This document shows, one piece after another, positions 1,943-15,381 of a DNA stretch of 58,058 nt. Under the pieces are notes generated by a model. The model did no database searches. It had not been told where the DNA came from and saw only the letters and a list, made by a program, of their open reading frames with translations. The first letter of the stretch is position 1, and each line of letters begins with the position of its first letter. A program made the position numbers and the translations under genes. This stretch comes from a virus (lineage: Duplodnaviria > Caudoviricetes). The stretch spans positions 1 through 58,058 of IMG/VR virus record IMGVR_UViG_3300009169_000026; one strand, 5' to 3'.

Positions 1943-1948
1943 GTATTA

Positions 1949-2484: not shown

Positions 2485-2510
2485 TAGTATCTGACTAACA
2501 GAAAAGAAAC

Positions 2511-2582: not shown

Positions 2583-2594
2583 AAATCGGAAAGC

Positions 2595-3104
2595 TTACAG
2601 CTTTCGGTAGATAAAAACATTCCTGGTTCCGGTTAGAGGCCATCTCTCTTCGGTAAACCCTTCGGAAAGACCATGGCGTCTCTCATCAAATTTGAATTCA
2701 CGCTTCTCCAGGAGAAGACCTTGCGTACCAAGGTAGGCAAGTTGCTTTTCTGTTGGAGCACTTGTTATGTCCACGAACACAGAGCCAGACGGCAGGTCAG
2801 CTACCAGACTGTACAGGTCATCATTGACCCATAGCAGGTATACATCGCAAACGGGCAGTTCCATGCCCCTAAGATCGCCACAGATTATGTGTGATCGCCT
2901 GCTGGCGGGTACCTTGCTTGACATTAGCTCAATGCCAACAACCTTGTCAGAAATCCCTAGACACCGAATCTCTTCTAGAAGGTCTCCTGCTCCGCACCCA
3001 ATATCGCAGACTGACTTACCAGTCAGGATATCAGAAAGCGCAGGAACAAGATCCAACGGCGAACGCTCAGGCCACTTCTGTGCAGGATTTTGTTGTGTAG
3101 GCAT
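2595..3104 (-). CDS. class I SAM-dependent methyltransferase
   Basis: VCDIGCGAGDLL motif I, VVGIE motif II, ICGDL. Confidence 0.8.
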   Translation of the reverse strand: MPTQQNPAQKWPERSPLDLVPALSDILTGKSVCDIGCGAGDLLEEIRCLGISDKVVGIELMSSKVPASRRSHIICGDLRGMELPVCDVYLLWVNDDLYSLVADLPSGSVFVDITSAPTEKQLAYLGTQGLLLEKREFKFDERRHGLSEGFTEERWPLTGTRNVFIYRKL

Positions 3105-3123
3105 TTATCATCCAAAAGGAAAA

Positions 3124-3197
3124 TCGGAGCAGCGGGATTTGAACTCGCAACATCTTGTACCCAAAACAAGTGGTCTACCAGATTGACCTATGCTCCG
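3124..3197 (-). tRNA. tRNA-Pro(TGG)
   Basis: CTTGT-TTTGGGT-ACAAG, CGGAGCA/TGCTCCG acceptor. Confidence 0.9.
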
Positions 3198-3212
3198 ATA
3201 AGTAGCAAATAT

Positions 3213-3776
3213 TCAGCGGATTCTCTTGCAGATTAGCTCTACCTGCTCGGCAACCGCAGGAACCAAGTTAGCACTCTTCAAAAAAGAAGTTAAACCCATT
3301 CCGTTGTCATATGTGTGAAGGTGCTGTAGGAAGGTTCCTGTAATTTCCGAGGAAAAGTGCTCGGCCAGACACGCATCTCGTACAATACGCTTCATGTCTT
3401 GAAAGTCAAGGATTTCACACGCATAGAAATGCAAGTTTGTGGTTGGACCCTCCCAGGATGCGACATAGTGAATCTTGCGTTCATCACCGTCAGGCCTAAG
3501 AGGCGAGAAGTTAATCTCCTCTTTTAGTTCTCGGAGAAGAGCTTCTTCGGGCGTCTCGCCCTGGTCGATGTGTCCACCCGGAAATCCAATTCTACCATCC
3601 CACCGATTGATCATTAGAACCGTGGGAATGACCGTATTGCATACGATTTTCGGGGTTTCCTTGTAGTGCTCGTACAGCTTGTGTCCACGATGGTAAATTG
3701 CAACGTGGACCGCAGAACGTTTGTTCGGGTTTGCCGAGAATTCTGATGGCAGTTGCTTGAGGTTGACAGTGGACAT
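3213..3776 (-). CDS. Nudix hydrolase, NUDT16/X29-like
   Basis: RWDGRIGFPGGHID..E.....LLRELKEE Nudix box; HFYA and C-terminal motifs resemble NUDT16. Confidence 0.85.
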   Translation of the reverse strand: MSTVNLKQLPSEFSANPNKRSAVHVAIYHRGHKLYEHYKETPKIVCNTVIPTVLMINRWDGRIGFPGGHIDQGETPEEALLRELKEEINFSPLRPDGDERKIHYVASWEGPTTNLHFYACEILDFQDMKRIVRDACLAEHFSSEITGTFLQHLHTYDNGMGLTSFLKSANLVPAVAEQVELICKRIR

Positions 3777-3833
3777 TGTCTTACTTGCTTTGAGAGAGAG
3801 TGAGTGAGAAGGAAATGAGGCGAATAATAACTA

Positions 3834-3916
3834 TGCCTAGGGTGGGAGTCGAACCCACACGCCCTTGCGGGCACCAGCTTCTGAGGCTGGAGTGTCTGCC
3901 ATTCCACCACCCAGGC
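3834..3916 (-). tRNA. tRNA-Leu(CAG)
   Basis: CCAGC-CTCAGAA-GCTGG, long variable arm. Confidence 0.92.
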
Positions 3917-3937
3917 AATTGGGAAGAGATAAGAAAA

Positions 3938-4010
3938 CTCCAGAGGTAGGCATCGAACCTACTCGCTCCTGATTAACAGTCAGGCGTCCCTCCAAAGGAA
4001 CCTCTCTGGA
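3938..4010 (-). tRNA. tRNA-Asn(GTT)
   Basis: CCTGA-CTGTTAA-TCAGG; A at position 8. Confidence 0.85.
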
Positions 4011-4021
4011 ACGAGAGAAAT

Positions 4022-4124
4022 CAACATCGGTGGGACTTAAACCCACAAAATCTCCCGTTCAGCCCTGGTTTGATAGTCCATAAGGCCTACAAGGGAGCAT
4101 GTCTGCCATTTCATCACAAACATC
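4022..4124 (-). tRNA. tRNA-like element with 36-nt anticodon loop (possible intron-bearing or pseudo tRNA, GTA)
   Basis: D arm ATGAAATGGCAGACAT, CTCCC/GGGAG stem enclosing 36 nt, T arm GTGGG-TTTAAGT-CCCAC; weak acceptor stem. Confidence 0.55.
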
Positions 4125-4133
4125 AAAAGAAAG

Positions 4134-4221
4134 TGCCGTGGGGGGAGAGTCGAACTCCCACGGGATTTTACTCCCGCTGGGTTCTTAGCCCAGTGCGTGC
4201 TACCAGTTTCGCCACCTCGGC
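4134..4221 (-). tRNA. tRNA-Leu(AAG)
   Basis: CTGGG-CTAAGAA-CCCAG, long variable arm, A73. Confidence 0.85.
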
Positions 4222-4232
4222 ATAAAGAGAAA

Positions 4233-4318
4233 TGGGGCTGGATGGACTTGAACCACCGACCGTCCCTGGGTAACTCGAGTCCCCAAGGATGCTCTGCAAA
4301 CAACTGAGCTACAGCCCT
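4233..4318 (-). tRNA. tRNA-like element with extended anticodon arm
   Basis: near-canonical D and T arms; 8-bp stem TCCTTGGG/CCCAGGGA with 11-nt loop GACTCGAGTTA. Confidence 0.65.
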
Positions 4319-4345
4319 TCAAAAGGGAAAGAAAAGAAGAAGAAA

Positions 4346-4417
4346 CTCCTGGGGCTGGGATCGAACCAGCGACCATCCGGTTAACAGCCGGACGCTCTTC
4401 CACTGAGCTACCCAGGA
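4346..4417 (-). tRNA. tRNA-Asn(GTT)
   Basis: TCCGG-CTGTTAA-CCGGA, canonical cloverleaf. Confidence 0.93.
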
Positions 4418-4422
4418 ACAAA

Positions 4423-4494
4423 GAAGCACTCCCTCGCCTCTCAGTAACCCTTTTTTGAGAAGCGTTGCTGAGAGAGACAGGAGGGAAACACTTC
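4423..4494 (-). ncRNA. putative long irregular hairpin RNA
   Basis: end-to-end imperfect inverted repeat within tRNA array. Confidence 0.4.
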
Positions 4495-4501
4495 CAAGGA
4501 T

Positions 4502-4687
4502 TTCATGTGCTATAGGATTCTACCTGAGCTGCGCCTCGTCCCATCCCCACATTACGCAGGGACAGGCCACTCAGGAAAAACAAGCTCTTCTAAGGAGCCC
4601 TGCCGTTTTTTTGTTCTGTTCTTAGGGAACCCTTCCAGGACCCAGCGAGACACGATTAGGCTATAGCCTCCTATAGATACACATGAA
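4502..4687 (-). ncRNA. putative multibranch ncRNA (~185 nt)
   Basis: closing helix TTCATGTG..CTATAGGA / TCCTATAG-CACATGAA with internal hairpins. Confidence 0.5.
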
Positions 4688-4692
4688 GTTTT

Positions 4693-4784
4693 TTGTGACT
4701 GCCCTGGGGCCCCCGCCCTTGGGGCGGCTGAGACCGGTCTCAAGTCCACTCCACCGTTTACGTCGGCGTAAGGTTCAATCACAA
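4693..4784 (-). ncRNA. putative multi-junction ncRNA (~92 nt)
   Basis: 9-bp closing stem TTGTGATTG/CAGTCACAA and three internal hairpins. Confidence 0.45.
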
Positions 4785-4858
4785 TGCTGCTGCCAGGAGT
4801 CGAACCTGGGCCATTTAGCTTATCAGGCCAAATAGGTAATACCGTACCGTCCAGCAGC
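4785..4858 (-). tRNA. tRNA-Ile(GAT), atypical D arm
   Basis: TTGGC-CTGATAA-GCTAA, GCTGCTG/CAGCAGC acceptor, CCAGG-TTCGACT-CCTGG. Confidence 0.8.
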
Positions 4859-4874
4859 GTAACACAGAAAATTC

Positions 4875-4946
4875 ACGTTGAAGGGGGATTTGAACCCGCC
4901 ACCTCCATCGCTCCAGGATGGCTCTGCTACTTTACACAATCCAACA
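4875..4946 (-). tRNA. degenerate tRNA, GGA anticodon, no long variable arm
   Basis: CCATC-CTGGAGC-GATGG, TTCAAAT T loop; poor D arm. Confidence 0.5.
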
Positions 4947-4960
4947 GAACAATTCTGCTA

Positions 4961-5031
4961 CGGACCCAAGGGGGAACGAACCCCCACCTTCTCCCGTGAC
5001 AGGGGAGTGCTCTACATTAAGCTACGGGTCC
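4961..5031 (-). tRNA. tRNA-Asp(GTC)
   Basis: CTCCC-CTGTCAC-GGGAG, G73. Confidence 0.88.
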
Positions 5032-5183
5032 AAGAAATGGACTTGGAAGGAATTTCTAAGCCAAAGAATCGGCCTAGAGAACACCACCAAATCCATAGTT
5101 TGGTTTATTCTATTCTGTTTTCAGAGTGAATGATAGAGAACTGTCCCCTCCCACTTGGGGGCAGGGTATGCAGTTCCTATCAA

Positions 5184-5257
5184 CATTCTCGTTGGGAGTC
5201 GAACCCAAAATATCAGCTTCGTAGGCTGATGTGATAATCCAGTTTCACCACGAGAAC
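5184..5257 (-). tRNA. tRNA-Arg(ACG)
   Basis: TCAGC-CTACGAA-GCTGA. Confidence 0.9.
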
Positions 5258-5338
5258 AAAGTTAGACGAAGAAAAAGATGAGGAAGTGAAAATTTCGGGT
5301 CAGAGCGACTCTTCCTGCAATCCCTAAAGGCTACAACC

Positions 5339-5367
5339 ATAGTAGCGTATTGGATAAGTAGTGTTAA
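5339..5367 (-). promoter_or_regulatory. sigma70-like promoter for tRNA array
   Basis: TTAACA-17-TACTAT. Confidence 0.55.
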
Positions 5368-5395
5368 CCTATTTATTTTCCCGACTGGCTTCTCT

Positions 5396-5421
5396 CTCTC
5401 TCTAATTGGTAATGTTCCACT
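5396..5421 (+). repeat. 26-bp dispersed repeat, copy 1
   Basis: CTCTCTCTAATTGGTAATGTTCCACT; exact reverse complement at 27766-27791. Confidence 0.85.
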
Positions 5422-5448
5422 AGAATAACAGAGAACTCCTAGAGAGCA

Positions 5449-6369
5449 TCAAAGCCCACTAAGACCAAGCTTTCGGAGGTCAGCCTTACCCATCTGCTTC
5501 AATTCGTAGCAATACACATCTGCTCCGTAATACCTAGTCAGTTCTCTCACGTAGGGATCCTTCACACCCGGATAGGCGTAAAGATTCTGGCTGGTCAAAG
5601 CCTTTCTCTCATTGGAGAGAGCCCACTGGTACACGTCACTGATGCTTGGCCCCTGCCACACCAGAGCCTTCTTCACCGACTCGGGCCGGGTGTCATAGGG
5701 GTTGTCAATCTGAGGAGGTGCAACGTACTTCCCTTCCGGGATCTTCCTGAGCAGGGCCCAGAACCACGGACCCTCGGGATCCGGCCTGACAGCCCACTTC
5801 ATGGTCTCAACACGAACTTCATAGCTCTTTCGCAGTTCCCTTGCAGCCTTGGCGGGATTGACCCTGACTCGCTGCGGGGCAACACACAGAATTCCGGTGC
5901 GAGGATCGACGTAGAACTTGCGCCACCCACGCTCGCTGAGAATCTTTCGATTCTCATGACTTCGTCCCCTTCCATGAAGGTGGTGAGGGTAGCACATCGA
6001 ACCATCCTCCTCGGAAATGGTAGGATTCACGATGACGTACTGAAACAAGTGCTGATAGACGTGTGCCCCGATAACGGAGGTCTTGGGGCAGGTCCTGACA
6101 ATCTCCGAGTAAACGTCATTCCACTTACGTCCACGAGCGGAGAAGAGAAAGTTCGTGAGAACGGAAAGGTTCTCAGAAAACACCTTGGTCTTTCGAGACA
6201 TTCCGAAAGGGCTGCGCTTGATTCCACGCTTGGCTCCCGGAGCCCAATCCTCATAGTCAGACTGACGTTCATCACGCTGACGAGCCTTTACCAGGCCCTT
6301 GTTTTTCTTGCCGTATCCGTAATCGGATCGCTCGTGCTCACACAGGAGCTTTTTGAAATCGGGTCGCAT
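5449..6369 (-). CDS. hypothetical protein (basic, 306 aa)
   Basis: long ORF with own promoter; ENLSVL..FL....GR.W..VYSEI pattern recalls a conserved uncharacterised family. Confidence 0.8.
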   Translation of the reverse strand: MRPDFKKLLCEHERSDYGYGKKNKGLVKARQRDERQSDYEDWAPGAKRGIKRSPFGMSRKTKVFSENLSVLTNFLFSARGRKWNDVYSEIVRTCPKTSVIGAHVYQHLFQYVIVNPTISEEDGSMCYPHHLHGRGRSHENRKILSERGWRKFYVDPRTGILCVAPQRVRVNPAKAARELRKSYEVRVETMKWAVRPDPEGPWFWALLRKIPEGKYVAPPQIDNPYDTRPESVKKALVWQGPSISDVYQWALSNERKALTSQNLYAYPGVKDPYVRELTRYYGADVYCYELKQMGKADLRKLGLSGL

Positions 6370-6378
6370 GATAGTCTC

Positions 6379-6407
6379 ATTATAGCAGAACTGCCGAGAT
6401 GTTTAAA
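6379..6407 (-). promoter_or_regulatory. sigma70-like promoter
   Basis: TTTAAA-17-TATAAT with TGn extension, 9 nt before ATG. Confidence 0.75.
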
Positions 6408-6420
6408 CCAATATTTCTTC

Positions 6421-6538
6421 GAGCACACTCTGCATTCCGTAAAAGCCCCTGGAAGCGCTTTGAGCCCCAAGGGCTACCCTGGTAGCTACCAACCCCGAAA
6501 CTGGTCAGGTAGGGCTTTTACGGAATCAGGAGAGGCGC
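6421..6538 (-). ncRNA. putative structured RNA downstream of release factor
   Basis: perfect 15-bp inverted repeat 6434-6448/6512-6526 enclosing two small hairpins. Confidence 0.5.
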
Positions 6539-7223
6539 TTACCAGAGGAGGGAGACCTTGCCCTTGGAGTATTCCTTGAAGGAGCATTCCTTGCCGGTTG
6601 AGTGATGCACGACCTTGCCGTGCTGAACCATGATGGTTCGCACCTTATCGCCTCTCATACCAGACCCGGCCTGTTCCTTACGGACCTTTGACAGGGCAAC
6701 CTGTTTCTTGTCTTTCTCAATTTGCAGAATTCGAGCACGAAGAAGAGACAGGGCGCTTTCCCTGTTCTGCTTCTGGCTTTTGTTGTCTTCTGCCCTTACG
6801 GAGATTCCTGTGGGAATGTGCTTGAGAATGACAGCGGTTTCGGTCTTGTTGCGGTGCTGCCCTCCAGGGCCTGAGCCTCTGGTGAACTGTTCTTCCAAGT
6901 CGGAAGGGTTGATTTTCACCTGGGCTTCGGTTGGCTCTGGAAAGCAGACAACCGTAACCGTAGACGTGTGTACCCTGCCACGCTTCTCGGTAGGGGGAAC
7001 TCTCTGCCAGCGATGACCACCAGCCTCGGAAGCAAACTTCTCTGCTCCCTTACCGGAGATTCTCAGAATGGCAAGACCGGGTGTTTTGTAGATAAGAGCT
7101 AGGTCAAAGACAATCTAGAATGCAGGCCTTTGCATAGATCCCGACCATGTCGTCAAGGATTAGCTTGGCATCGTCTCCGCCCTCGGCGGCTCGAATCTCT
7201 AGAATCATGGCTGTCTGTGACAT
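6539..7223 (-). CDS. class I peptide chain release factor homolog (RF1-type PxT, GGQ), +1 frameshift at CTT-TGA-C (7109-7103)
   Basis: frame 0 MSQTAMILEIRAAEGGDDA..CL*; +1 frame ..EAGGHRWQRVPPTEKRGRVHTSTVTV..GSGPGGQHRNKTETAV; GAAGGGG SD before ATG 7223. Confidence 0.9.
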
Positions 7224-7254
7224 AACGATTACCCCTTCAAATAGAAAGTAGGAG

Positions 7255-7346
7255 CGGAAGGCAGAGGACTCGAACCCCAGTCCCGATAAAGGGGCCCATC
7301 TATTTAGCAAACAGAGCCGCCGTCCGATTACGACGATTTACCTTCC
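7255..7346 (-). tRNA. tRNA-Ser(GCT), extended D stem
   Basis: TCTGT-TTGCTAA-ATAGA, long variable arm, G73. Confidence 0.82.
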
Positions 7347-7365
7347 AAACAGAAACAAAGAAACA

Positions 7366-7452
7366 CGGAGAGCACTGCACTCGAAACAGACCCCCTTGCG
7401 AGGGCGCACAACTTTCCAGGTTGGCCCGGCACGCCTGTCCGGTTTACTCTCC
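7366..7452 (-). tRNA. tRNA-Ser(GGA), extended D stem
   Basis: CCAAC-CTGGAAA-GTTGT, long variable arm, G73. Confidence 0.8.
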
Positions 7453-7457
7453 AAAAC

Positions 7458-7886
7458 CTAATACTTCAAAGTCATCTTACGAAAGGATAGGTTCATGTGT
7501 ATAAGACTTGGTTTCTGCTCACTGTAGTCCAGATCGTCAAATCTCACAAGTTCTGGGCTTACACCCACAAACTCCCACAGGCTTATAACGGTGCCACTCC
7601 TATCAAGTTGCTTGACCCTTGCTTTTAGGTTCTTTCTTTTCATAGCCTTCTTGCAGAAGGTCATGACTCCCTGACTTCCTGACGGAGCAAGGGGATTGTA
7701 CAGCACCACCTCTAGGTTTGTCTTGTAGGTTAGATTTCCTTCTGTACTGACAGATATCTGAGGTAGTCTAACGGCCTTAACGAGAAAGGGCTCTATGTCA
7801 TCCAATTCCAAAATGAAGCGAGAATTAAACTTTGGCTCAAACTTGGTTGGAAGCAACTCAACTGGCTGAAGGGTTTCTGTGATCAT
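7458..7886 (-). CDS. tail tube protein paralog (T4 gp19-like)
   Basis: FEPK..RFIL, LYNPLAPSG, LDRSG.VI..W...G..P..V.FDDLDYS pattern. Confidence 0.7.
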   Translation of the reverse strand: MITETLQPVELLPTKFEPKFNSRFILELDDIEPFLVKAVRLPQISVSTEGNLTYKTNLEVVLYNPLAPSGSQGVMTFCKKAMKRKNLKARVKQLDRSGTVISLWEFVGVSPELVRFDDLDYSEQKPSLIHMNLSFRKMTLKY

Positions 7887-7917
7887 CGACCATAACTAGG
7901 CCGCAGACTTATTTTTG

Positions 7918-8088
7918 CTACCGCTTTTCCTTGGAAGGTTTTTTCTGCCAGTCCTTGGGTATGATCTGTTCTCCGACCGTCCCGATAACGTCAAGAAGAA
8001 AGTAGAGGAAGAACGCCATGGTAATGCTGACTCCCAGGAGAACAGCGATCACGACGAAGAGCACTCCGAACCCGATGTAGTAGAACAT
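7918..8088 (-). CDS. small membrane protein (56 aa, not in ORF track)
   Basis: MFYYIGFGVLFVVIAVLLGVSITMAFFLYFLLD..KEKR*, one hydrophobic helix. Confidence 0.6.
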   Translation of the reverse strand: MFYYIGFGVLFVVIAVLLGVSITMAFFLYFLLDVIGTVGEQIIPKDWQKKPSKEKR

Positions 8089-8125
8089 AACTCGTTACTC
8101 ATTCACGCTGAGAAGAAAAGAGAAA

Positions 8126-8214
8126 CGGAAGATAGAGGTCTCGATCCCCATACCATCTAAATGGCACAATCCGCTTTCGAGGCGGTTCCGGCATACCCAT
8201 CCGGTTTATCTTCC
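8126..8214 (-). tRNA. tRNA-Ser(CGA), extended D stem
   Basis: ACCGC-CTCGAAA-GCGGA, long variable arm, T loop ATCGAGA. Confidence 0.82.
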
Positions 8215-8277
8215 ACTGTAACGGAAGTTCACTACAAGGATAAATAGTCCCTCAGTCCTTGTCTCTTACAAAGTAAG

Positions 8278-8562
8278 TCAGTCTCCAAAGTCGTGATGAT
8301 ACATAGACCACAGATAGGTTGGGTGCTCATCGCCAGCATCTTCCGCACCAGACGACGAAGAAGCACTGGAACAGGAACACCCCTCGCAGGAGCCGCAATC
8401 CTCGGGGGTAGAGTCCTCTGTCGTCGGCGCAGCGGCAGGCGGGTAGAGTGCCGAGCTATAGGCAGAACAGTGAAAGTTGGAGCATTCCACGTTACCCAAA
8501 AACGAAACATAGCACGGACGTGTTCCGCACCTTGGACAAGCCTCACCTTGAATTTGTTGCAT
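8278..8562 (-). CDS. small Cys-rich (zinc-ribbon-like) protein
   Basis: CPRCG..C..ECSNFHC and CGSCEGCSC. Confidence 0.6.
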   Translation of the reverse strand: MQQIQGEACPRCGTRPCYVSFLGNVECSNFHCSAYSSALYPPAAAPTTEDSTPEDCGSCEGCSCSSASSSSGAEDAGDEHPTYLWSMYHHDFGD

Positions 8563-8594
8563 TTCTACACTTTCTTTCGTGTCTGTAAATTGAA

Positions 8595-8657
8595 GAAGCC
8601 AGGAAGAAAACCACTGTTCCCGGAGATTAGAGGGGAGAGGTCTACCTTCCTGGCTTC
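8595..8657 (-). other. hairpin with perfect 12-bp closing stem
   Basis: GAAGCCAGGAAG/CTTCCTGGCTTC. Confidence 0.5.
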
Positions 8658-8659
8658 AT

Positions 8660-9105
8660 ACCCTTGCGGGATTTAGGAACTTGAACAACCATACGGCAAG
8701 ACGAAAAAGATTCTTACAGTACAGGAGCTCAAAACCCAGGGTTCCTAATGGGCCTGGTACCGATTACCCTGGCGGGGGATTATTGACAACCGTTGATATC
8801 GGGGCGAGACCGGATCGGTTGACTGACCTTGGTAGTTTTCATCTACCCATTACTTTTAGTCGTGAAACCAAAAGAGTTGTAAAATAACTCGGCTCATACA
8901 GATTGCTCTGTCCTGACGAGAACGCCACCCTGCCCCCACTATTACTTTTCGGCCTCTGTTTCTTCGTGATGTGAGAGACTACCTCACGCACGAAGCCACT
9001 TCACGACTGGACCATTAGGGGACAGACTCACGCTTCTGCTCTCAGTGGTTAAACCTCGAGTTTTTCTTCATTCCCCACCAATATAAGGGGCAGGGAGCAA
9101 GTAGG
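8660..9105 (-). ncRNA. candidate large pseudoknotted ncRNA
   Basis: no credible ORF; three long-range 8-9 bp helices, GNRA-capped hairpins, directly downstream of tRNA-Ala. Confidence 0.6.
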
Positions 9106-9111
9106 AAGCTC

Positions 9112-9183
9112 TGGACCGACAGGGGATCGAACCCTGAATTCCTGCGTGCAAGGCAGGTGTGTTCCCATTAGCACTATCGGCCC
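9112..9183 (-). tRNA. tRNA-Ala(TGC)
   Basis: CCTGC-CTTGCAC-GCAGG, G3:U70. Confidence 0.92.
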
Positions 9184-9223
9184 GTGTATGCGATATCTCG
9201 TTTGAGGAGATAGCACATTTCTA

Positions 9224-9252
9224 ACTATAGCTGACCGTACAAACTTTGTTAA
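9224..9252 (-). promoter_or_regulatory. sigma70-like promoter
   Basis: TTAACA-17-TATAGT upstream of tRNA-Ala. Confidence 0.6.
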
Positions 9253-9277
9253 TCTATTTTGGTGCTAGCCGCCCGGA

Positions 9278-9691
9278 TTAAACCCAATAGGAAGCCAATG
9301 CAAATCCATGCTTTGCATAAAGCGCCTGACCAGCCCTGTTCCAGGGAGCAGCTACCACCTTCGGAATTTCGTTCCGAGCCGCAGAAGACTTCACCCGCTT
9401 CATAAGCTTACTTGCAATGCCACGGCCACGGTGAGGCCTTGCCACATAGCACCCGACCTGCCACGGAGAGGCACCAATCGGAAAACGCTTGCAAATCATG
9501 GCCCATCCAACGATCTGCCCCAGATGCCAAGCCAGAATGTAGATTCCGTCTCGCTTGCAAGAAAGATCATGCAGAAGGGCCGAGCCAATTCCATGGCGTC
9601 CCCAGCCGCCATTAGTTAGAAACCGGAGTCGCTTGACCACGTCAGGCCGAGAAAAAATCTCGTATGCCTCATACTCTCGAATCTGAACCAT
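9278..9691 (-). CDS. GNAT family acetyltransferase
   Basis: YVARPHRGRGIASKLM, N.AGQALYAKHGF. Confidence 0.85.
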   Translation of the reverse strand: MVQIREYEAYEIFSRPDVVKRLRFLTNGGWGRHGIGSALLHDLSCKRDGIYILAWHLGQIVGWAMICKRFPIGASPWQVGCYVARPHRGRGIASKLMKRVKSSAARNEIPKVVAAPWNRAGQALYAKHGFALASYWV

Positions 9692-9721
9692 TTGCGTATA
9701 CCCCTTTGACTATCTCTGAAA

Positions 9722-10042
9722 TTAGCCAATTGCAAAATTGACGGTGCGGACAAAAGCCTTGGGCGGCTTTACCATTTTCAGCCAGCGGCCCTGAGGCTCA
9801 GACCAGCGAAACCAAGTCTGATTTGCTGGAGAGCAAGTCGAAATGCAGTACATATCGTCAAGCTTTATCTTTTCGATTACTGCATGTGAGTAAAGTCGTT
9901 CCTCGAGACCACCAGCATTTGTCAGAATGATGTGCTCAGCCTTTTCATGGGTGGAGCACAGGACCGGGGTGCGAGTGGCAGTGTTACCGGCCAGGCTCAT
10001 GTAGAGCGTGGTTACTGTGTAGACAAAGTCGGAGTGGCTCAT
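9722..10042 (-). CDS. hypothetical protein
   Basis: start MSHSDF with ATGA overlap. Confidence 0.65.
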   Translation of the reverse strand: MSHSDFVYTVTTLYMSLAGNTATRTPVLCSTHEKAEHIILTNAGGLEERLYSHAVIEKIKLDDMYCISTCSPANQTWFRWSEPQGRWLKMVKPPKAFVRTVNFAIG

Positions 10043-10260
10043 ATTAAGCCTTTCTCGGCATTTTTTGCCATAGCCATGGCGTATCCACGAGCCTCGTAGT
10101 ACAAGCAAACGAGGTCGTGCAGGTCCCCAACGCTCGTCGGAGAGCCCCAGTGGTGACGGGTCTTGACGTTCAAGAGAAAGACTTTCTGCTCGTCATCAAG
10201 ACCACCGTGCTCCTTGAGCACGAAGTGCGCCATGTCATACGGTGACGTATTCGGAGGCAT
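10039..10260 (-). CDS. hypothetical protein
   Basis: start MPPNT just after upstream stop. Confidence 0.55.
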   Translation of the reverse strand: MPPNTSPYDMAHFVLKEHGGLDDEQKVFLLNVKTRHHWGSPTSVGDLHDLVCLYYEARGYAMAMAKNAEKGLI

Positions 10261-10268
10261 TGTATTTA

Positions 10269-10580
10269 TCAGGTTGCGGGCTTGCTGACTGCCCAGTGAG
10301 TAAAGCACACGGTGCTGGGTAGCTGGTACTCTCGAATTAGAGCCTTGGTATCTTCCGGGAAGGCAAGATTCACCATTTCACGAACCTTGTTGCTGAGATC
10401 GGCCATGGCTCGCTGATAGGCCTCAAACCTCTCAATTACCTTTGAGAGCCGGTTAATCTCATCCTGGAGGATAGCCTGTGCTTCAAGGTTGCCCTTAAGG
10501 CTGAAAACCGCAATTTCCAGGGTCATCACCTGGAGCCGGTAATCTGCAAGGAAATCCTGGGCCGTCTGCTCCTTGATCAC
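10269..10580 (-). CDS. hypothetical protein (coiled-coil)
   Basis: GTGA overlap coupling. Confidence 0.6.
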   Translation of the reverse strand: MIKEQTAQDFLADYRLQVMTLEIAVFSLKGNLEAQAILQDEINRLSKVIERFEAYQRAMADLSNKVREMVNLAFPEDTKALIREYQLPSTVCFTHWAVSKPAT

Positions 10581-10816
10581 GGTAGACCTGCTCTCTTTGC
10601 TAGATAGAGTTTACGCCAAACTGTAAGCACCACTCTGTGGCCGAGTCCTAGTCGTGGTTCCGGTCGGCGAGGCCGAGAAATCAGGTTGGTAAATGCGGCT
10701 TTGTTGTGCCAGGGATACGCAGGCGTGCCCTTGTTATAGAACCCAGGCTTGAGCACAAAGCGGAAATACTTCACCTCATTCCGCAAGGTGCTACACAGCT
10801 TGTTCTCACCAGCCAT
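10577..10816 (-). CDS. hypothetical protein
   Basis: operon packing. Confidence 0.5.
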   Translation of the reverse strand: MAGENKLCSTLRNEVKYFRFVLKPGFYNKGTPAYPWHNKAAFTNLISRPRRPEPRLGLGHRVVLTVWRKLYLAKRAGLP

Positions 10817-11063
10817 TGAAGTCTGCCTCGTTCTGAACGAACTGTCGAGTTGAGTAGTGGCCGAGGCTATCCCAGTTTGGGGCCGAACGAAGCCACCGTT
10901 TGCGATCCTCTTCCTGGGCTAGCTCTGCTCTGGCCTTGGAAGTGAAGACACCAATGAATCGGCGCTCACGGTCCCGGTGATTCTCAGTCCAGTAAAGAAC
11001 GAAAAGCTCAGGCTTGGCAACCTCGGGAATGCTTTCGTCGGGAGCATGAATTCCATTTTCCAT
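10806..11063 (-). CDS. hypothetical protein
   Basis: FIGVFTSKARAE motif common in small phage proteins; AAGGAG SD. Confidence 0.65.
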   Translation of the reverse strand: MENGIHAPDESIPEVAKPELFVLYWTENHRDRERRFIGVFTSKARAELAQEEDRKRWLRSAPNWDSLGHYSTRQFVQNEADFNGW

Positions 11064-11069
11064 CTGCCA

Positions 11070-11393
11070 TCACTCCTTATCGGCCGATCGGCGAGCGTTC
11101 TCGGCATTCATTACTCGAAACACGAACCGGTCGAGCACAGGTCCGAGATCGCTCAGCAGCAGGCTGATGATCTTTGCGAAAGCAGCGAACAGGAAGAGCG
11201 GCCACAGGATTGAGTTGACAACCACTCTCAGGGCGAGGTGGTGCGCTTCAATCTTGGTAATCGGTGGCATCTCCGTGCCGTGGTCCTTGCGGTACTGCCA
11301 GCGGAACAGAAATCGAGTTAGGACCACGGCGATCGGAGGAAAACAGAGGCCGACACCCGCATAGACACCAATCGCTAGCAAAACCGTACTCAT
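11070..11393 (-). CDS. small membrane protein
   Basis: two hydrophobic segments, ILWPL motif. Confidence 0.65.
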   Translation of the reverse strand: MSTVLLAIGVYAGVGLCFPPIAVVLTRFLFRWQYRKDHGTEMPPITKIEAHHLALRVVVNSILWPLFLFAAFAKIISLLLSDLGPVLDRFVFRVMNAENARRSADKE

Positions 11394-11438
11394 CTTTTTA
11401 CCTGCCGAAAAAGGAGGAAGGGATGGATGTACAGAAAA

Positions 11439-11511
11439 TGGGACGTGTGGGGAACGATCCCACGACCGACGGGTTAAAAGCCCGCTGCTCTGCCGACTGA
11501 GCTAACGTCCC
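11439..11511 (-). tRNA. tRNA-Lys(TTT)
   Basis: GCGGG-CTTTTAA-CCCGT. Confidence 0.9.
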
Positions 11512-11573
11512 AATATTTGTCAGGTAGGGACCAACCACCCTGACAAATACCGGAGAAAGTCAAAGAAAAGGAT

Positions 11574-11647
11574 TGTGAACGCAGAGGATTGAACTCTGAC
11601 TTGCTGGGTCACGACCAGCCGTGCGGGACCTTTACACCACGCTCACC
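11574..11647 (-). tRNA. tRNA-His(GTG), atypical C33 and A73
   Basis: GCTGG-TCGTGAC-CCAGC, G-1 present. Confidence 0.8.
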
Positions 11648-11704
11648 ACGAGGTAAATAGAGTGTGAAAAACTCTATTTTCTCAGACCTGGGCACCGTTC
11701 TCTA

Positions 11705-11944
11705 TCAGCGAGAGAAGATGACACGTCGGGTCAGGTGGTCATGGCGACGAACACGGCCGAGATCGTCGATCGACTCGACGGTGGTGCGCTTCTGTCGATC
11801 GAGCACCACGTCACCGAACCGACTCGGGCCGATGTTCACAAGCTCGATGGTCGAACTTGCCTCCACGACGAGGAAATAGTCCTCACGACCGAGGGCCGAA
11901 GCAGTGATCACGTCGCCAGTACGAAGGGTCTTGATAGTACGCAT
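11705..11944 (-). CDS. hypothetical protein
   Basis: GC-rich codon usage, downstream of promoter. Confidence 0.65.
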   Translation of the reverse strand: MRTIKTLRTGDVITASALGREDYFLVVEASSTIELVNIGPSRFGDVVLDRQKRTTVESIDDLGRVRRHDHLTRRVIFSR

Positions 11945-12048
11945 TGTCTTTTCTACCTTTGGGAACTTTAGAGAGAGGGTTGTTTGTTTATCGGGCCGGG
12001 TCGGAGAACCTCACCGGCTCTGTCTGTCTAGCTCTTGGCTACTTATCT

Positions 12049-12077
12049 AATATAGCATGGTCACGAACCAAAGTAAA
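12049..12077 (-). promoter_or_regulatory. sigma70-like promoter
   Basis: TTTACT-17-TATATT with TGn extension. Confidence 0.65.
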
Positions 12078-12100
12078 CCATTATTTTCTAAGGGTTTTTG

Positions 12101-12475
12101 CTATGTTTTATCCGTAAATGGTATCACGTTCAACCAAACGTCGATTGGGGCATACAGAACCACGTTATCTACAACGATTTTCAGGTAATAAATCTCACCT
12201 ACCTTTTCCCCTTCATCAACAAGGAGAAACATTGTGTTGGGGGCCAGGATCTTGACCACGGATGGTGTAGAGGGTGCCCCATCAAACACCGCACTTCCAT
12301 ATCTGAGTGCTAGTGACAACTGGCCGCTGTCATATATCTCAATGACCGCTTTACAGGCGTGACTAACGTAGTTCCTGGGAAGCGGTGACACGGGCGGAGA
12401 AAGGAAGCATAGAGCGGCATTGGGACCAAAGCTGTACAGACTTCCAACCTTTATGGGAGGATAGTCCATGGTCAC
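12101..12475 (-). CDS. hypothetical protein
   Basis: GTGA overlap with RNA ligase. Confidence 0.65.
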   Translation of the reverse strand: MTMDYPPIKVGSLYSFGPNAALCFLSPPVSPLPRNYVSHACKAVIEIYDSGQLSLALRYGSAVFDGAPSTPSVVKILAPNTMFLLVDEGEKVGEIYYLKIVVDNVVLYAPIDVWLNVIPFTDKT

Positions 12476-13500
12476 TTCTCAAGGTAACGATTAGAGACGT
12501 ACTTCAAAGCAACACGCCCAATGTCATAGTTGCGTCGCTCGTTTACAACCTTTACCACGACGCCCTCTCGGACGTGGCCCGCACTATTGAAGGTCTCATT
12601 CTGCTCAGCAAGCTCAGCAATAACCTTGGGGTCATTGGGACCAGCATACAGAACGGGAAGGAAGTTCAATCCAGCATAGTCGGGGTGCGAAAACTCCGAA
12701 TTAACGACCCAACGATTATCTCGCAGAATGTCGAAGATTACCACGCCAAACTGGTTGTTGGCCAGACCGTAGTGAAATCCCCGCTGAATCTGGGGTCCGA
12801 ATACCTCGGCATAGAGGACGACACCGGGATGATCCTTGCACCAAGCCTCAAGCCATGGATTCTGCTCATTGGCAGCCCACCACGCATTCTGTTTTACCTC
12901 AATAGGCTCTGCATCCCCAGCAGGAAAAATCATGGAACCAGGACGCATCTTCCACTGCGTCCGGCTGCCGCACCACATTCGATCACCGTGCCAAACGAAG
13001 CGTGCATTGCAACCATGGATCTTAGGAGTAAGGATAATATCCTCGCCATCCTCTAGGATGGAGCGGTACTTCTTCCAATTCTCGAGATCGTACTTTGGGG
13101 CAAGGATCTCAGGACCCTTCTCCGCAAAGGCTCCCTTAACCATTAGCTCCTCTGGAGGCTCGTACCGTGTAACCCCAAGACCCTCAATGACATTGTCTCC
13201 CTCGACAGAGCCGGGGGGAGCGGCAATCAAAAGACCCTGAGAGTAAACTCCACGCAGGCGACGAACGGCAATACGGTGGCGTGGTCGATCCTTTCCTGGC
13301 TTAGCCAGGAAGGAAAACTCCGGTCGGTCTAGAGGGACCTCGTAGTCAGGCTCAATGTAGGCCGCAAGATCACCGACCTTGAAAGAATCCTTTCGGATTG
13401 CACAAATGTATCCCCAAACCGGGATCAACTCAAGGGAGTCGGCATCGGGGTGCGGAGTGATCTCGGTGATCTTAATCACATTAACTGCGTGTGTACTCAT
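12472..13500 (-). CDS. ATP-dependent RNA ligase (Rnl2/DRB0094-type)
   Basis: N-terminal HPDADSLE OB-like domain, LRGVYSQGL, KIHGCN motif I, EVFG, FDI, REGVV, ALK. Confidence 0.9.
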   Translation of the reverse strand: MSTHAVNVIKITEITPHPDADSLELIPVWGYICAIRKDSFKVGDLAAYIEPDYEVPLDRPEFSFLAKPGKDRPRHRIAVRRLRGVYSQGLLIAAPPGSVEGDNVIEGLGVTRYEPPEELMVKGAFAEKGPEILAPKYDLENWKKYRSILEDGEDIILTPKIHGCNARFVWHGDRMWCGSRTQWKMRPGSMIFPAGDAEPIEVKQNAWWAANEQNPWLEAWCKDHPGVVLYAEVFGPQIQRGFHYGLANNQFGVVIFDILRDNRWVVNSEFSHPDYAGLNFLPVLYAGPNDPKVIAELAEQNETFNSAGHVREGVVVKVVNERRNYDIGRVALKYVSNRYLEK

Positions 13501-13795
13501 TGGCTTTACTTTCTGCTGGTTTTTCCAGAGTTTCAATCACTCTTACAATGGTGTCGAGGTACCAGACGGGTACCATCCAGACATGGTCTTGAATCAAGAA
13601 CCGGGCTACTGAACAATCAAGAGAGGTGCTGACCACCGTATCAAGATACACGAGAATGGTGCCAGGCTCTAGGACCTTGGGAAGGACACTTCTGTTTCTC
13701 CATTTAGTGCTGTTCAGTGAATCCGGTGACATAGTCACCATCACGGTGCGAGTGACAATATAGGTATCGCCCGGCCTTTTGAAATACGTGTACAT
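13481..13795 (-). CDS. hypothetical protein
   Basis: ATG at 13795 (MYTYFK). Confidence 0.6.
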   Translation of the reverse strand: MYTYFKRPGDTYIVTRTVMVTMSPDSLNSTKWRNRSVLPKVLEPGTILVYLDTVVSTSLDCSVARFLIQDHVWMVPVWYLDTIVRVIETLEKPAESKANEYTRS

Positions 13796-13796
13796 T

Positions 13797-14134
13797 TTAC
13801 TCAAGTCGTTCAACCGAAATCTTCTTGAGCTCTAACCAGCTTGGACAAAGAATCCACCAAACCTTGTCCCCATAAATCACCGAAGCATGAGTGTCTTTTA
13901 CTGCGGCAACCATAAACGGAACGTTGGGGAGGTGTGGCCTATCTTACTGCCCAGATATTCGCTAATCCTAATGACGGCATTGTTGGTAGCGGACGTAGCG
14001 GCGCATACAGCCGGATAAACTCCAGAAGAACCGCTACCCGCCTTAAGGGCGTCGTCATGGCTCTGATACAGAAATATGCAGAAACCGCTGGAGTAAACGC
14101 TCCCAGCCTTTAACTCAAGAGGTTCCTGTTCCAT
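13797..14134 (-). pseudogene. frameshifted hypothetical gene
   Basis: frame 0 stops at 13898; -1 frame from the TCCCCAAC run gives PNVPFMV..VIYGDKVWWI..* ending 1 nt before next ATG. Confidence 0.55.
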
Positions 14135-14228
14135 GTTTACCTTCTGACAAAGACACCGATAGGATTCGCACCTACATTTTGTGAGGTTGCAGCTCACACC
14201 CTAACTTTTCGAGGCACAGCGTCTAATT

Positions 14229-14585
14229 TTACCACGTCGTCGTGCGTCGCCTAAACCTGCGACGCTCATCAGCTTGTTTTGATAGGCTAATTGAAGCACG
14301 CAGCCGAGCGAGGACCCGAGGATCCCTGAGAAAGTGCATTAGGCTGCAATTCCCACGATCTCTGTTGCACTCGAAACAGACAACCAACAGGTTTTCGTTG
14401 CAAGCAGGCCCGCCATAGGACTTTGGAATGATGTGATCGAGCGTGGCTACATTTCCTTCCACCTTCGTCTTGCCATGAACGTGAAGTGTCATGGGGATTC
14501 GGCAATACGCACAGCGCCCGCCAAACTCTTCAAAGGTGCGATGCTTGAAGGGCTGCTTCCTCTGACTATGGTTCTTTGTCCACAT
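14229..14585 (-). CDS. HNH endonuclease
   Basis: CAYC, TLDHIIPKSYGG, NLLVVCFECN. Confidence 0.9.
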   Translation of the reverse strand: MWTKNHSQRKQPFKHRTFEEFGGRCAYCRIPMTLHVHGKTKVEGNVATLDHIIPKSYGGPACNENLLVVCFECNRDRGNCSLMHFLRDPRVLARLRASISLSKQADERRRFRRRTTTW

Positions 14586-14593
14586 ATATCCCT

Positions 14594-14622
14594 AGGATAG
14601 CATGGAACCTGACCGATTTTAA
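14594..14622 (-). promoter_or_regulatory. sigma70-like promoter
   Basis: TTAAAA-17-TATCCT with TGn extension, 8 nt before ATG. Confidence 0.55.
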
Positions 14623-14629
14623 CCAATAA

Positions 14630-14700
14630 AGCGAATAGGGAGAGTCGAACTCCCGCCTTCTGAATGGCAATCAGAAATGCCTCCGTAACACCTTATTCGC
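14630..14700 (-). tRNA. tRNA-Gly(GCC)
   Basis: TCTGA-TTGCCAT-TCAGA, U73, A8. Confidence 0.85.
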
Positions 14701-14706
14701 ACTAGA

Positions 14707-15060
14707 CTAGACTTCCATATGGCATCTTGCTGGCCATGATGGCTGACAAACTCCCCACCGACAATCAATCTTCCTTGACTCCATCTCCCTCTTTAGGAGC
14801 CTCATATCCCTTTCGTCCAAAAATCCTGTAGAGTACAGAACCTCTCCGGGGATACGGACCTCGATCCTCTCTTCCATAACGCCCATGGCTTCCCTCCTAT
14901 CAAGAAGGAGAAAGGCGCTCTTTACGGAATTGGCTCTATCAATACGTAGGGCATGAAGCTGAATATCTTTCCTGTGTTCTTCATTAAGATAGTCAACAGG
15001 ATAGAGCTCGTCACGCTCAATGTCACTCTTTGTTCTAATGTTCATGGGATTCTCTACCAA
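14707..15060 (-). CDS. hypothetical protein
   Basis: operon packing; start uncertain. Confidence 0.55.
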   Translation of the reverse strand: MVENPMNIRTKSDIERDELYPVDYLNEEHRKDIQLHALRIDRANSVKSAFLLLDRREAMGVMEERIEVRIPGEVLYSTGFLDERDMRLLKREMESRKIDCRWGVCQPSWPARCHMEV

Positions 15061-15375: not shown

Positions 15376-15381
15376 AAGTTC

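What the first reader, a model, noticed from the sequence alone, without database searches (positions are those of the whole stretch)
8660..9105. Candidate ~450-nt pseudoknotted ncRNA co-transcribed with tRNA-Ala
Seen: a region with no credible ORF and three long-range complementary pairs, 9087-9095/8928-8936, 9012-9019/8744-8751 and 9000-9008/8858-8866. The last two cross the first, and one partner lies in the loop of hairpin 8736-8742/8766-8772, implying pseudoknots. Also present are hairpin 8962-8995, two GCAA-tetraloop hairpins and a duplicated AAAAGUAAU (8941-8949, 8849-8857). Known: large ornate RNAs such as GOLLD and ROOL occur beside phage tRNAs. Inference: this is a relative of those classes or a new one.
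Basis: partly seen in the sequence, partly recalled or inferred. Interest (0 to 1): 0.8.

Follow-up and report, generated by a model that had tools for sequence, protein, structure and literature searches.

The report
Orphan structured spacer after phage tRNA-Ala
A 549-base gene-free stretch behind a tRNA gene of a very large phage folds better than chance and may be a new non-coding RNA, but no relatives were found, so its structure cannot yet be tested.

Summary
The sequence facts are real. Window 8563-9111 (- strand) is the longest stretch of the 58-kb contig without a tRNA or an ORF. Folding beats shuffles (z -3.5; both flanks z > 0) and ranks 4th of 158 GC-corrected windows. The evidence for an ornate pseudoknotted RNA is weak. 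Perfect inverted repeats are only modestly enriched (4 versus 1.1 expected; 24 of 1000 shuffles reach this). The three pairs have about zero probability in the nested ensemble. Most of the signal comes from a few strong hairpins. Rfam gives nothing: ROOL and GOLLD were tested by accession, RNase P and group I through the whole-library scan. No homologue was found in any searched collection, so covariation is untestable. Other runs hold only 100%-identical copies.

Context helps. Relatives carry a covariation-supported, Rfam-unmatched ~355-nt RNA ("family X"), in seven loci, including a GNAT-tRNA-Ala relative, in this same slot. Models of its conserved 3' core do not match the window.

Verdict: a plausible orphan ncRNA (about 0.4). 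The main rival is a tRNA trailer, terminator or leader spacer. It is not a GOLLD or ROOL relative.

The parts
9224..9252 (-). Sigma-70-like promoter site (TTAACA, 17 nt, TATAGT; 10 of 12) about 40 nt upstream of tRNA-Ala
   Evidence: The scan as a whole is not enriched (5 found versus 4.2 expected). All 5 sites lie on the gene strand, and 4 sit just upstream of a gene or tRNA: this one, two before the ORF that starts at 6369, and one before tRNA-Arg at 5258.
9112..9183 (-). tRNA-Ala (anticodon UGC), the 5' neighbour of the candidate RNA
   Evidence: ARAGORN; Rfam tRNA at 54.6 bits.
8563..9111 (-).
   Evidence: It is the longest stretch of the window free of tRNA/tmRNA and of - strand ORFs of 60 aa or more. 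Codon-usage scores are negative in all six frames. MFE is -184.7 kcal/mol, z -3.53, with 0 of 100 shuffles as stable. It ranks 4 of 158 GC-corrected 549-nt windows. The flanks 8278-8562 and 7887-8277 have z +0.62 and +0.74.
8770..9080 (-). Predicted 5' multibranch domain closed by the 8-bp helix 9080-9073/8777-8770
   Evidence: All pairs of the closing helix have p>0.9. The domain has z -2.75. This is a prediction from one sequence only.
8962..8995 (-).
   Evidence: p>0.9; z -3.69.
8898..8911 (-). GCAA-tetraloop hairpin (ACAGA GCAA UCUGU)
   Evidence: p>0.9.
8787..8874 (-). Three local hairpins: 8874-8853, 8847-8831 and 8821-8787
   Evidence: Each has all pairs at p>0.9.
8681..8732 (-). Long hairpin of three stacked helices (6+6+5 bp)
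   Evidence: p>0.9; z -5.94 (the segment was picked after folding, so the z is inflated).
8661..8670 (-). Second GCAA-tetraloop hairpin (CCC GCAA GGG)
   Evidence: Sequence read; present in the MFE.
8595..8657 (-). Strongest element: a 12-bp perfect stem with an inner 4-bp helix, followed by UUCAAUUU. Candidate 3' end, terminator or protective hairpin
   Evidence: I2, 100% complementary; pair probability 0.998. Region 8590-8660 has z -5.51. Its loop is too long for the terminator scan. The only Rfam echoes are generic hairpin matches at E 1.3-1.5.
8278..8562 (-). 94-aa ORF bounding the stretch. It has an N-terminal CxxC...CxxxxC (zinc-ribbon-like) motif. Whether it is a gene is uncertain
   Evidence: Translation. 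A purine-rich stretch before the ATG resembles those of other genes here. The codon score is poor. No homologue in the 5.8-billion-protein search or in viral contigs. No Pfam or PHROG match.

Best explanation
Window 8563-9111 (- strand) most likely encodes an orphan, moderately structured non-coding RNA of roughly 460-520 nt. It belongs to the translation island of a very large phage, which also holds tRNAs, a tmRNA, an RF-1-domain protein and an RNA ligase.

Proposed mechanism (inferred, not shown): the RNA is transcribed together with tRNA-Ala(UGC) from the sigma-70-like site at 9252-9224. Its 5' end is made when the tRNA 3' end is processed. Its 3' end is set or protected by the long hairpin 8657-8595 and its U-rich tail. 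The product then acts in trans, as GOLLD, ROOL and the unnamed family X of related phages are presumed to do.

It belongs to no described RNA family and it is not a detectable member of family X.
For: 1. It is the longest gene-free stretch in a tightly packed 58-kb contig (549 nt). No frame is credible under table 11, table 4 or TAG=Q.
2. The folding signal is confined to this stretch. z is -3.53 on the - strand, against +0.62 and +0.74 for the two downstream flanks. It ranks 4 of 158 windows, and the three windows above it are tRNA clusters. The - strand folds better than the + strand (-184.7 versus -170.0 kcal/mol; z -3.53 versus -2.30), which fits the direction of all genes.
3. Positional argument. 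Seven loci carry a ~355-nt structured RNA (family X) directly 3' of tRNA-Ala(UGC): six TerL relatives at 73-75% identity (L008, L009, L011, L012, L014, L020) and L049. L049 shares the order tRNA-His, tRNA-Lys, GNAT, tRNA-Ala with the window. Family X has strong covariation. In the 3' domain 94.6% of cells are paired, 20 of 37 pairs show compensatory change, and 0 of 500 shuffles reach this; slid controls give 29-41% paired. In the 5' domain 94.8% are paired and 9 of 24 pairs are compensatory. So this slot is used for large RNAs in the group.
4. L050 has the same GNAT-tRNA-Ala order. It has a 424-nt gene-poor gap there with z -3.08.
5. A promoter-like site lies upstream of the tRNA, and a very stable hairpin with a U-rich tail lies at the far end.
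Against: No homologue was found, so no covariation can be counted. The searches were blastn against 50,697 phage records, the neighbour-gene loci, 3 whole records of GNAT relatives, 12 whole records of TerL relatives, and blastn against all fetched loci.

The pieces laid from four other sequencing runs on the 549-nt gap are 100% identical and carry no variants. The only unlike pieces lie on the tRNA-Ala gene.

There is no expression evidence.

Much of the signal comes from three strong hairpins. That pattern fits terminators or processing sites as well as it fits a global fold.

The models of the conserved family X core score at most 6.4 bits (E>1) on the window with filters off. The first of them (R1) scored 48.5 bits on the distant member L049, which was then added to build R2. 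The positional analogy is therefore not homology.

In two other relatives the slot is nearly empty: 24 nt in L046 and 143 nt in L060.
Confidence: 0.4

Rival explanations
1. It is a cis-acting spacer and not an independent RNA. On this reading the stretch is the 3' trailer of tRNA-Ala plus the leader of the 94-aa ORF. A few strong hairpins (8962-8995, 8681-8732, 8595-8657) serve as terminator, attenuator, nuclease sites or 3'-end protection, and there is no global fold.
For: The structural signal is concentrated in local hairpins: z -5.5, -5.9 and -3.7 for the three segments, against -2.1 for 8660-9105. The largest hairpin is followed by a U-rich tail about 30 nt before the ATG at 8562. The only Rfam echoes are generic long-hairpin families.
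Against: At 549 nt it is far longer than any other spacer in the window. Most of the next-longest gene-free stretches are 147-199 nt; the few longer ones either hold + strand ORFs of 170 and 240 aa or, for 7887-8231, only a questionable 81-aa frame. A multibranch domain with an 8-bp closing helix at p>0.9 is predicted for 8770-9080. The same slot holds a true structured RNA in relatives. Whether the 94-aa ORF is a gene at all is uncertain.
Confidence: 0.32
2. It is a decayed remnant. Candidates are a degenerate descendant of family X, of former tRNA genes, or of a small mobile insertion at the tRNA-Ala 3' end. It would have no present function.
For: A 16-nt near-copy (13 of 16) of the tRNA-Ala 3' end lies 104 nt downstream (9007-9022 versus 9111-9126, D1), as an integration scar would. 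The slot is variable among relatives: family X, an unrelated 424 nt, 24 nt or 143 nt. No homologue was found anywhere searched.
Against: Large phage genomes shed useless DNA. The stretch folds clearly better than shuffles while its flanks do not. No tRNA-like match was found at E<=10. Two-copy 16-nt repeats are often chance, as the tool notes.
Confidence: 0.13
3. It is a member of family X that has diverged beyond recognition. Family X is the ~355-nt RNA found at the same slot in relatives.
For: The position is the same (3' of tRNA-Ala, after GNAT) as in L049. The family's 5' domain is so variable that its model misses even L049. There are short shared words, an AGAGCAAUCU hairpin and CAGAAGCG (read); my estimates of chance sharing are about 0.2 for the 10-mer and about 3 for the 8-mer.
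Against: The 3' core is nearly invariant across nine AT-rich members and was recognised in the 52%-GC L049 at 48.5 bits by R1, which was built without L049. Yet R1 and R2 with filters off give at most 4.2-6.4 bits (E 1.2-4.6) on the window. An nhmmer profile finds nothing in the stretch.
Confidence: 0.07
4. It is a missed protein-coding gene, either recoded or frameshifted.
For: Only short frames exist: 50-68 aa under table 11 and up to 83-89 aa under table 4 or TAG=Q.
Against: Codon-usage scores are negative in all six frames. No Pfam or PHROG match was found. The rest of the contig reads as long ORFs under table 11, so recoding is not indicated.
Confidence: 0.03

Closest known systems
ROOL RNA (Rfam RF03087) and GOLLD RNA (Rfam RF02032)
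   Same: Both are large RNAs of phages and prophages, often near tRNA islands, with unknown function (passages read in bioRxiv 10.1101/2024.12.08.627333). The window stretch is about 0.5 kb and sits inside a phage tRNA island, directly after a tRNA.
   Different: No sequence or structure match: 0 matches at E<=10 for either model on the whole window. The family X loci were scanned only with the whole Rfam library, which also gave nothing. ROOL and GOLLD structures rest on covariation over many members. Here there is one sequence and none.
Family X: an unnamed ~355-nt structured RNA found here in related phage contigs (L008, L009, L011, L012, L013, L014, L020, L040, L041; 3' domain also in L049)
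   Same: It occupies the same genomic slot, directly 3' of tRNA-Ala(UGC) within the tRNA array downstream of TerL and tmRNA. In L049 it follows the order GNAT, tRNA-Ala, as in the window. It is of similar size, has no ORF and has no Rfam match.
   Different: The window does not match the family's conserved 3' core, an nhmmer profile or blastn. Family X has covariation support; the window stretch has none.
tRNA trailers and intrinsic terminator or 3'-protective hairpins of bacterial and phage tRNA operons (general knowledge)
   Same: A very stable hairpin with a U-rich tail lies at the distal end (8657-8587), and a promoter-like site lies before the tRNA.
   Different: About 450 nt of further structured sequence lies between the tRNA and that hairpin. 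The hairpin loop (39 nt) is not that of a canonical terminator.
RNase P RNA and group I introns
   Same: Size class, and an association with tRNA genes. A true group I intron sits in a tRNA gene next to family X in relative L014 (66.4 bits).
   Different: The window stretch gives no match at E<=10 to any Rfam model of these kinds. It interrupts no gene.

Membership tests
ROOL (RF03087) | Match to the family covariance model (574 positions, gathering score 99.1 bits) | tested here: not met
   0 matches at E<=10 in the whole window. The controls also gave nothing, so this search had no positive control. The whole-library scans were also negative.
GOLLD (RF02032) | Match to the family covariance model (416 positions, gathering score 150 bits), that is, its conserved 3' region | tested here: not met
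   0 matches at E<=10. Searches were negative.
Bacterial or archaeal RNase P RNA (Rfam models; accessions recalled, not checked) | P4 helix and the conserved regions CR-I to CR-V, as scored by the Rfam models | tested here: not met
   The whole-library cmscan at E<=10 on 5200-16200 and on 8540-9115 listed no RNase P model. That these models are in the library is assumed; it was not checked by accession.
Group I intron (RF00028) | The P3-P9 catalytic core as scored by the model, and insertion in a host gene | tested here: not met
   No match at E<=10. The same library found a group I intron in L014 at 66.4 bits, so the model works in this group. The stretch interrupts no gene.
tRNA, tmRNA or tRNA-like pseudogene | Cloverleaf scored by ARAGORN or Rfam RF00005/RF00023 | tested here: not met
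   ARAGORN found nothing in 8563-9111. No tRNA-clan match at E<=10.
   With filters off, the best match in the stretch is 4.2 bits, E 4.6 (R1) and 5.1-6.4 bits, E 1.2-2.9 in L001 (R2). Positive control: L049 at 48.5 bits, E 3e-13.
   R3 found nothing in the window, but it also missed its positive control L049.
   ARAGORN shows the family directly after tRNA-Ala in 7 of 10 member loci; L013 and L041 are elsewhere. L040 runs out at its edge, where only the tRNA's 3' end is visible. The window stretch starts at the base after tRNA-Ala.
Structured ncRNA in general | Significant covariation in homologues | not testable with these tools
   No homologue was found. Pieces laid from four other runs are identical across the gap.
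Structured ncRNA in general | Folding energy below that of shuffled sequence | tested here: met
   z -3.53, with 0 of 100 shuffles as stable. Rank 4 of 158 windows. Flanks z +0.62 and +0.74.

The most novel reading that the evidence does not exclude
The slot behind tRNA-Ala(UGC) in the translation island of this group of very large phages may be a cassette site for large structured RNAs. Most sampled relatives fill it with family X, a covariation-supported ~355-nt RNA absent from Rfam. The window phage, and perhaps L050, fill it with unrelated RNAs of similar size. The window's 549 nt would then be the single known member of a further new class of phage tRNA-island RNA that replaces family X functionally.
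Probability: 0.22. Interest if true: 0.7.

Novelty: new variant of a known kind. Interest (0 to 1): 0.4.

Why it matters
Large structured RNAs in phage tRNA islands (GOLLD, ROOL) are among the most striking RNAs of unknown function, and few classes are known. If the window stretch is a true RNA, it adds an unrelated class at a defined slot of a translation island. Together with family X in relatives, it would point to interchangeable RNA cargo linked to tRNA processing or to takeover of translation. As it stands, the window feature is a single-sequence candidate that cannot be validated by comparison. Family X is the better-supported by-product of this work, and the better entry point for experiments.

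Tried and rejected
Homologue searches that found nothing for 8563-9111:
- blastn (distant mode) against 50,697 phage records.
- Neighbour-protein scans of viral contigs: the 94-aa ORF had 69 pattern hits and 0 relatives; the 142-aa ORF had 13 hits and 0 relatives.
- GNAT scans: 4 loci in viral contigs at 46% identity or less, and 14 loci in metagenome contigs at 46% or less.
- RNA ligase: 1 locus at 29%.
- blastn of the stretch against all fetched loci matched only the tRNA-Ala gene.
- Whole-record searches of 3 and of 12 relatives' records gave only 14-29-nt chance matches. L003, L018, L019, L020 and L025 were not held and so were not searched.
- A degenerate tRNA-Ala pattern in viral contigs gave 1 locus, L060, with no similarity downstream.
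- Pairwise local alignments of the window, L050 and L049 gaps scored within their shuffles.

Other dead ends:
- Sequencing runs: no RNA holder was listed. Pieces laid from four DNA runs across the gap were 100% identical, so they give no variation.
- Family X in the window: nhmmer and models R1 and R2 were negative. R3 failed its positive control.
- Family X elsewhere: the core pattern gave 8 stretches in viral contigs and 0 in genome contigs. A looser pattern gave 56 stretches. Of the 50 new loci examined, 1 matched R2, and it lies in a contig already known.
- Alternative genetic codes give no long frame.
- A resemblance of UAGAUGAAAACU and CACGAC to RNase P RNA was recalled from memory. I rejected it because no RNase P model matches and the order of the motifs is wrong.
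- RF01998 was asked for by mistake; it is a group II intron domain, and it gave only a 10.6-bit chance match elsewhere.
- The full-length family X model could not be calibrated.
- The supplement of PMC10690425 (8,495 candidate RNAs from IMG/VR) may list family X or this stretch. Supplements are closed, so I read only passages of the main text.

Full report
WHAT THE WINDOW IS. The window is a whole IMG/VR virus record of 58,058 bases, classed linear and estimated 15% complete. It is therefore a fragment of a very large phage. Nearly all genes lie on the - strand. Positions 1-17,000 form a translation island. It holds 16 tRNAs by ARAGORN and two more by Rfam, a tmRNA, a 126-aa RF-1-domain protein, a GNAT acetyltransferase and an RNA ligase. 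Terminase large subunit, an SbcC-like protein, primase and baseplate genes follow.

THE OBSERVATION.
- All three complementary pairs and the duplicated 9-mer are present (sequence).
- Hairpin 8962-8995 and a GCAA hairpin at 8898-8911 are present.
- A second GCAA hairpin lies at 8661-8670.
- tRNA-Ala(UGC) lies at 9112-9183 on the - strand.

There is no credible ORF. Codon-usage scores trained on 15 long ORFs are negative in all six frames across 8563-9111. Short frames have no Pfam or PHROG match. Table 4 and TAG=Q give no long frame. It runs from 9111 to 8563 (549 nt), and it is the longest stretch of the window without a tRNA, tmRNA or - strand ORF of 60 aa or more.

IS IT MORE THAN CHANCE? 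Partly.
- In 8660-9105 there are 4 perfect inverted repeats of 8 nt or more, against 1.11 expected (24 of 1000 dinucleotide shuffles reach 4). There are 2 of 9 nt or more, against 0.26 expected (33 of 1000).
- The 549-nt stretch folds to -184.7 kcal/mol on the - strand, z -3.53, and none of 100 shuffles is as stable. The + strand gives z -2.30.
- Against 158 windows of 549 nt along the contig, corrected for G+C, it ranks 4th. The three windows above it are tRNA clusters.
- The signal stops at the borders. The 94-aa ORF region 8278-8562 has z +0.62, and 7887-8277 has z +0.74.
The strongest contributions come from local hairpins: 8590-8660, 8681-8732 and 8962-8995.

THE PSEUDOKNOT MODEL. The three long-range pairs have a mean probability of about 0.000 in the nested ensemble. 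Forcing any one of them costs 7.0-9.8 kcal/mol. The G-rich arm 8928-8937 is predicted instead to pair with 9018-9026, and 9073-9080 to pair with 8770-8777, each at p>0.9. Parts of the arms of pairs 2 and 3 are single-stranded in the ensemble, so tertiary pairing is not excluded. Nothing supports it beyond the complementarity itself. Pair 1 also rests on G and C runs that have several possible partners.

KNOWN FAMILIES. Rfam 15 (4,227 models) gives no match in the stretch at gathering scores. It gives none at E<=10 on 11 kb. On the 576 bases alone it gives only two weak generic matches (E 1.3-1.5, on opposite strands) to the one long hairpin. ROOL (RF03087) and GOLLD (RF02032), asked for by accession, give no match at E<=10. 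The library is able to see such RNAs in this phage group: it found tmRNAs, tRNAs and a group I intron in relatives. The claim of kinship with GOLLD, ROOL, RNase P or group I is therefore not supported.

HOMOLOGUES. None was found. The full list of searches is under Tried and rejected. In brief, it covered phage records, neighbour-gene loci in viral and metagenome contigs, whole records of relatives, and a tRNA-Ala pattern scan. Eight sequencing runs from five studies (soil, wetland, freshwater sediment) hold parts of the stretch. In the four runs laid, the pieces on the gap are 100% identical, so they carry no variation.

CONTEXT IN RELATIVES: FAMILY X. TerL relatives at 73-78% amino-acid identity keep the order TerL, tmRNA, tRNA-Glu, tRNA-Ala(UGC). 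I compared the sequence downstream of tRNA-Ala in nine loci.
- Six of them (L008, L009, L011, L012, L014, L020) share about 350-450 nt at 66-95% identity, with no long ORF.
- L018 shares only its tRNAs. L019 ends 41 nt after the tRNA. L002 has an ORF there.

A profile and a pattern scan added L013, L040 and L041. This family X has no Rfam match, and its covariation is convincing.
- In the 3' domain, 37 pairs in 7 helices are 94.6% paired. Twenty pairs show compensatory change, 0 of 500 shuffles reach the observed values, and slid controls give 29-41% paired.
- In the 5' domain, 24 pairs are 94.8% paired and 9 are compensatory.

A covariance model of the 3' domain then found a distant member in L049 at 3759-3949 (48.5 bits, E about 3e-13). 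L049 is a metagenome contig of about 49% G+C that shares the order tRNA-His, tRNA-Lys, GNAT, tRNA-Ala with the window. The slot occupied by the window's 549 nt is thus an RNA-gene slot in this group.

The window is not a detectable member. With filters off, R1 and R2 give at most 4.2-6.4 bits (E>1) there, and nhmmer finds nothing. The 5' domain model missed L049 too, so it says nothing either way. L050 has the same GNAT-tRNA-Ala order and a different 424-nt gap with z -3.08. L046 has only 24 nt in the slot and L060 has 143 nt. Family X is rare. It was found in 9 viral contigs and one metagenome contig, and in none of the 185,579 species genomes by its core pattern.

HOW IT MOST LIKELY WORKS. 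Shown:
- a gene-free stretch with above-chance folding confined to it;
- a sigma-70-like site (TTAACA, 17 nt, TATAGT) at 9252-9224, upstream of tRNA-Ala;
- a very stable hairpin at 8657-8595 with a U-rich tail.

Inferred: co-transcription with tRNA-Ala, release of the 5' end by tRNA 3' processing, a 3' end at or protected by the long hairpin, and action in trans as for other tRNA-island RNAs. I put this at about 0.4. The main rival, at about 0.32, is a cis-acting trailer or leader whose hairpins are terminators or processing sites. A decayed remnant (0.13), an unrecognisable family X member (0.07) and a missed gene (0.03) follow.

COMPARISON WITH WHAT IS KNOWN, AND NOVELTY. GOLLD and ROOL are phage and prophage RNAs that often lie near tRNA islands and have unknown function (passages read in bioRxiv 10.1101/2024.12.08.627333). 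The window stretch resembles them in context and size only, and it fails their membership tests. If it is real, it is a further, unrelated form of that kind of RNA. A survey of IMG/VR reported 8,495 candidate structured RNAs (PMC10690425; abstract and passages read). Its lists are in supplements I could not open, so family X or this stretch may already be listed there. Three literature searches returned no paper that describes an RNA in this slot.

VERDICT. This is a real, unusually long and moderately structured non-coding stretch in a phage tRNA island. It is a reasonable but unproven ncRNA candidate. It is not a GOLLD or ROOL relative, and the proposed pseudoknots are unsupported. Interest is 0.4.

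Noticed in passing
L008:10362-10711, L009:18633-18986, L020:19555-19901, L011:20472-20830, L012:10641-10969, L014:13083-13440, L040:11853-12199 (-), L041:9343-9672, L013:16794-17141; 3' domain also L049:3759-3949: A ~355-nt structured RNA (family X) with no Rfam match lies in tRNA arrays of related large phages. In 7 of 10 member loci ARAGORN shows it directly 3' of tRNA-Ala(UGC). Covariation is strong: 20 of 37 and 9 of 24 pairs show compensatory change. The 3' core is conserved and the 5' domain is variable. It was not found in 185,579 prokaryote species genomes by its core pattern.
   Followed up: yes
L014:13461-13659: A group I intron (Rfam RF00028, 66.4 bits; gathering score 50) lies just after family X. 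It appears to sit inside a tRNA gene that starts near 13436.
   Followed up: partly
L008:11190-11310 and L009:19036-19156: A tRNA gene carries a 51-nt insertion in the anticodon loop (Rfam tRNA, 51.4 bits, full model). It lies directly downstream of family X. It may hold a small intron.
   Followed up: no
window 16181-16535 (-): A phage-encoded tmRNA (139.8 bits) has the unusual predicted tag GSPKSIPSEWA*. Relatives' tmRNAs carry ANDSSYALAA-type tags.
   Followed up: no
window 6539-6919 (-): A 126-aa protein consists of an RF-1 domain only (Pfam PF00472, E 1.6e-27). It looks like a small release-factor or ArfB-like peptidyl-tRNA hydrolase, and it sits in the same island as the tmRNA and an RNA ligase (12472-13536).
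   Followed up: no
window 7256-7346 (-): A weak tRNA-Sec-like match (28 bits against a gathering score of 47; E 0.04) lies in a stretch with only a questionable short ORF (7104-7310). It may be a degenerate or unusual tRNA.
   Followed up: no
window 2032-2103 and 4233-4318 (-): Rfam finds two further tRNAs here (41.8 and 40.5 bits) that ARAGORN did not list.
   Followed up: no
window 9007-9022 versus 9111-9126: A 16-nt near-copy (13 of 16) of the 3' end of tRNA-Ala lies 104 nt downstream of the gene. It could be an integration scar or chance.
   Followed up: partly
L050:1308-1731: In a contig with the same order (tRNA-His, tRNA-Lys, GNAT, tRNA-Ala), a 424-nt gene-poor gap before tRNA-Asn folds with z -3.08. 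It matches neither family X, nor Rfam, nor the window.
   Followed up: partly
window 7887-8562: Downstream of the stretch, the only frames are a 94-aa orphan with a zinc-ribbon-like motif (no homologue in 5.8 billion proteins) and short frames with poor codon scores. About 1.2 kb (7887-9111) therefore lacks any confirmed gene. This part shows no excess folding (z +0.6 to +0.7).
   Followed up: partly
L018:1441-2301, L019:6494-7354, L025:1-621: In these relatives the TerL match covers only residues 1-296 or 81-296 of 580, at 83% identity. The terminase gene there may be split or interrupted.
   Followed up: no
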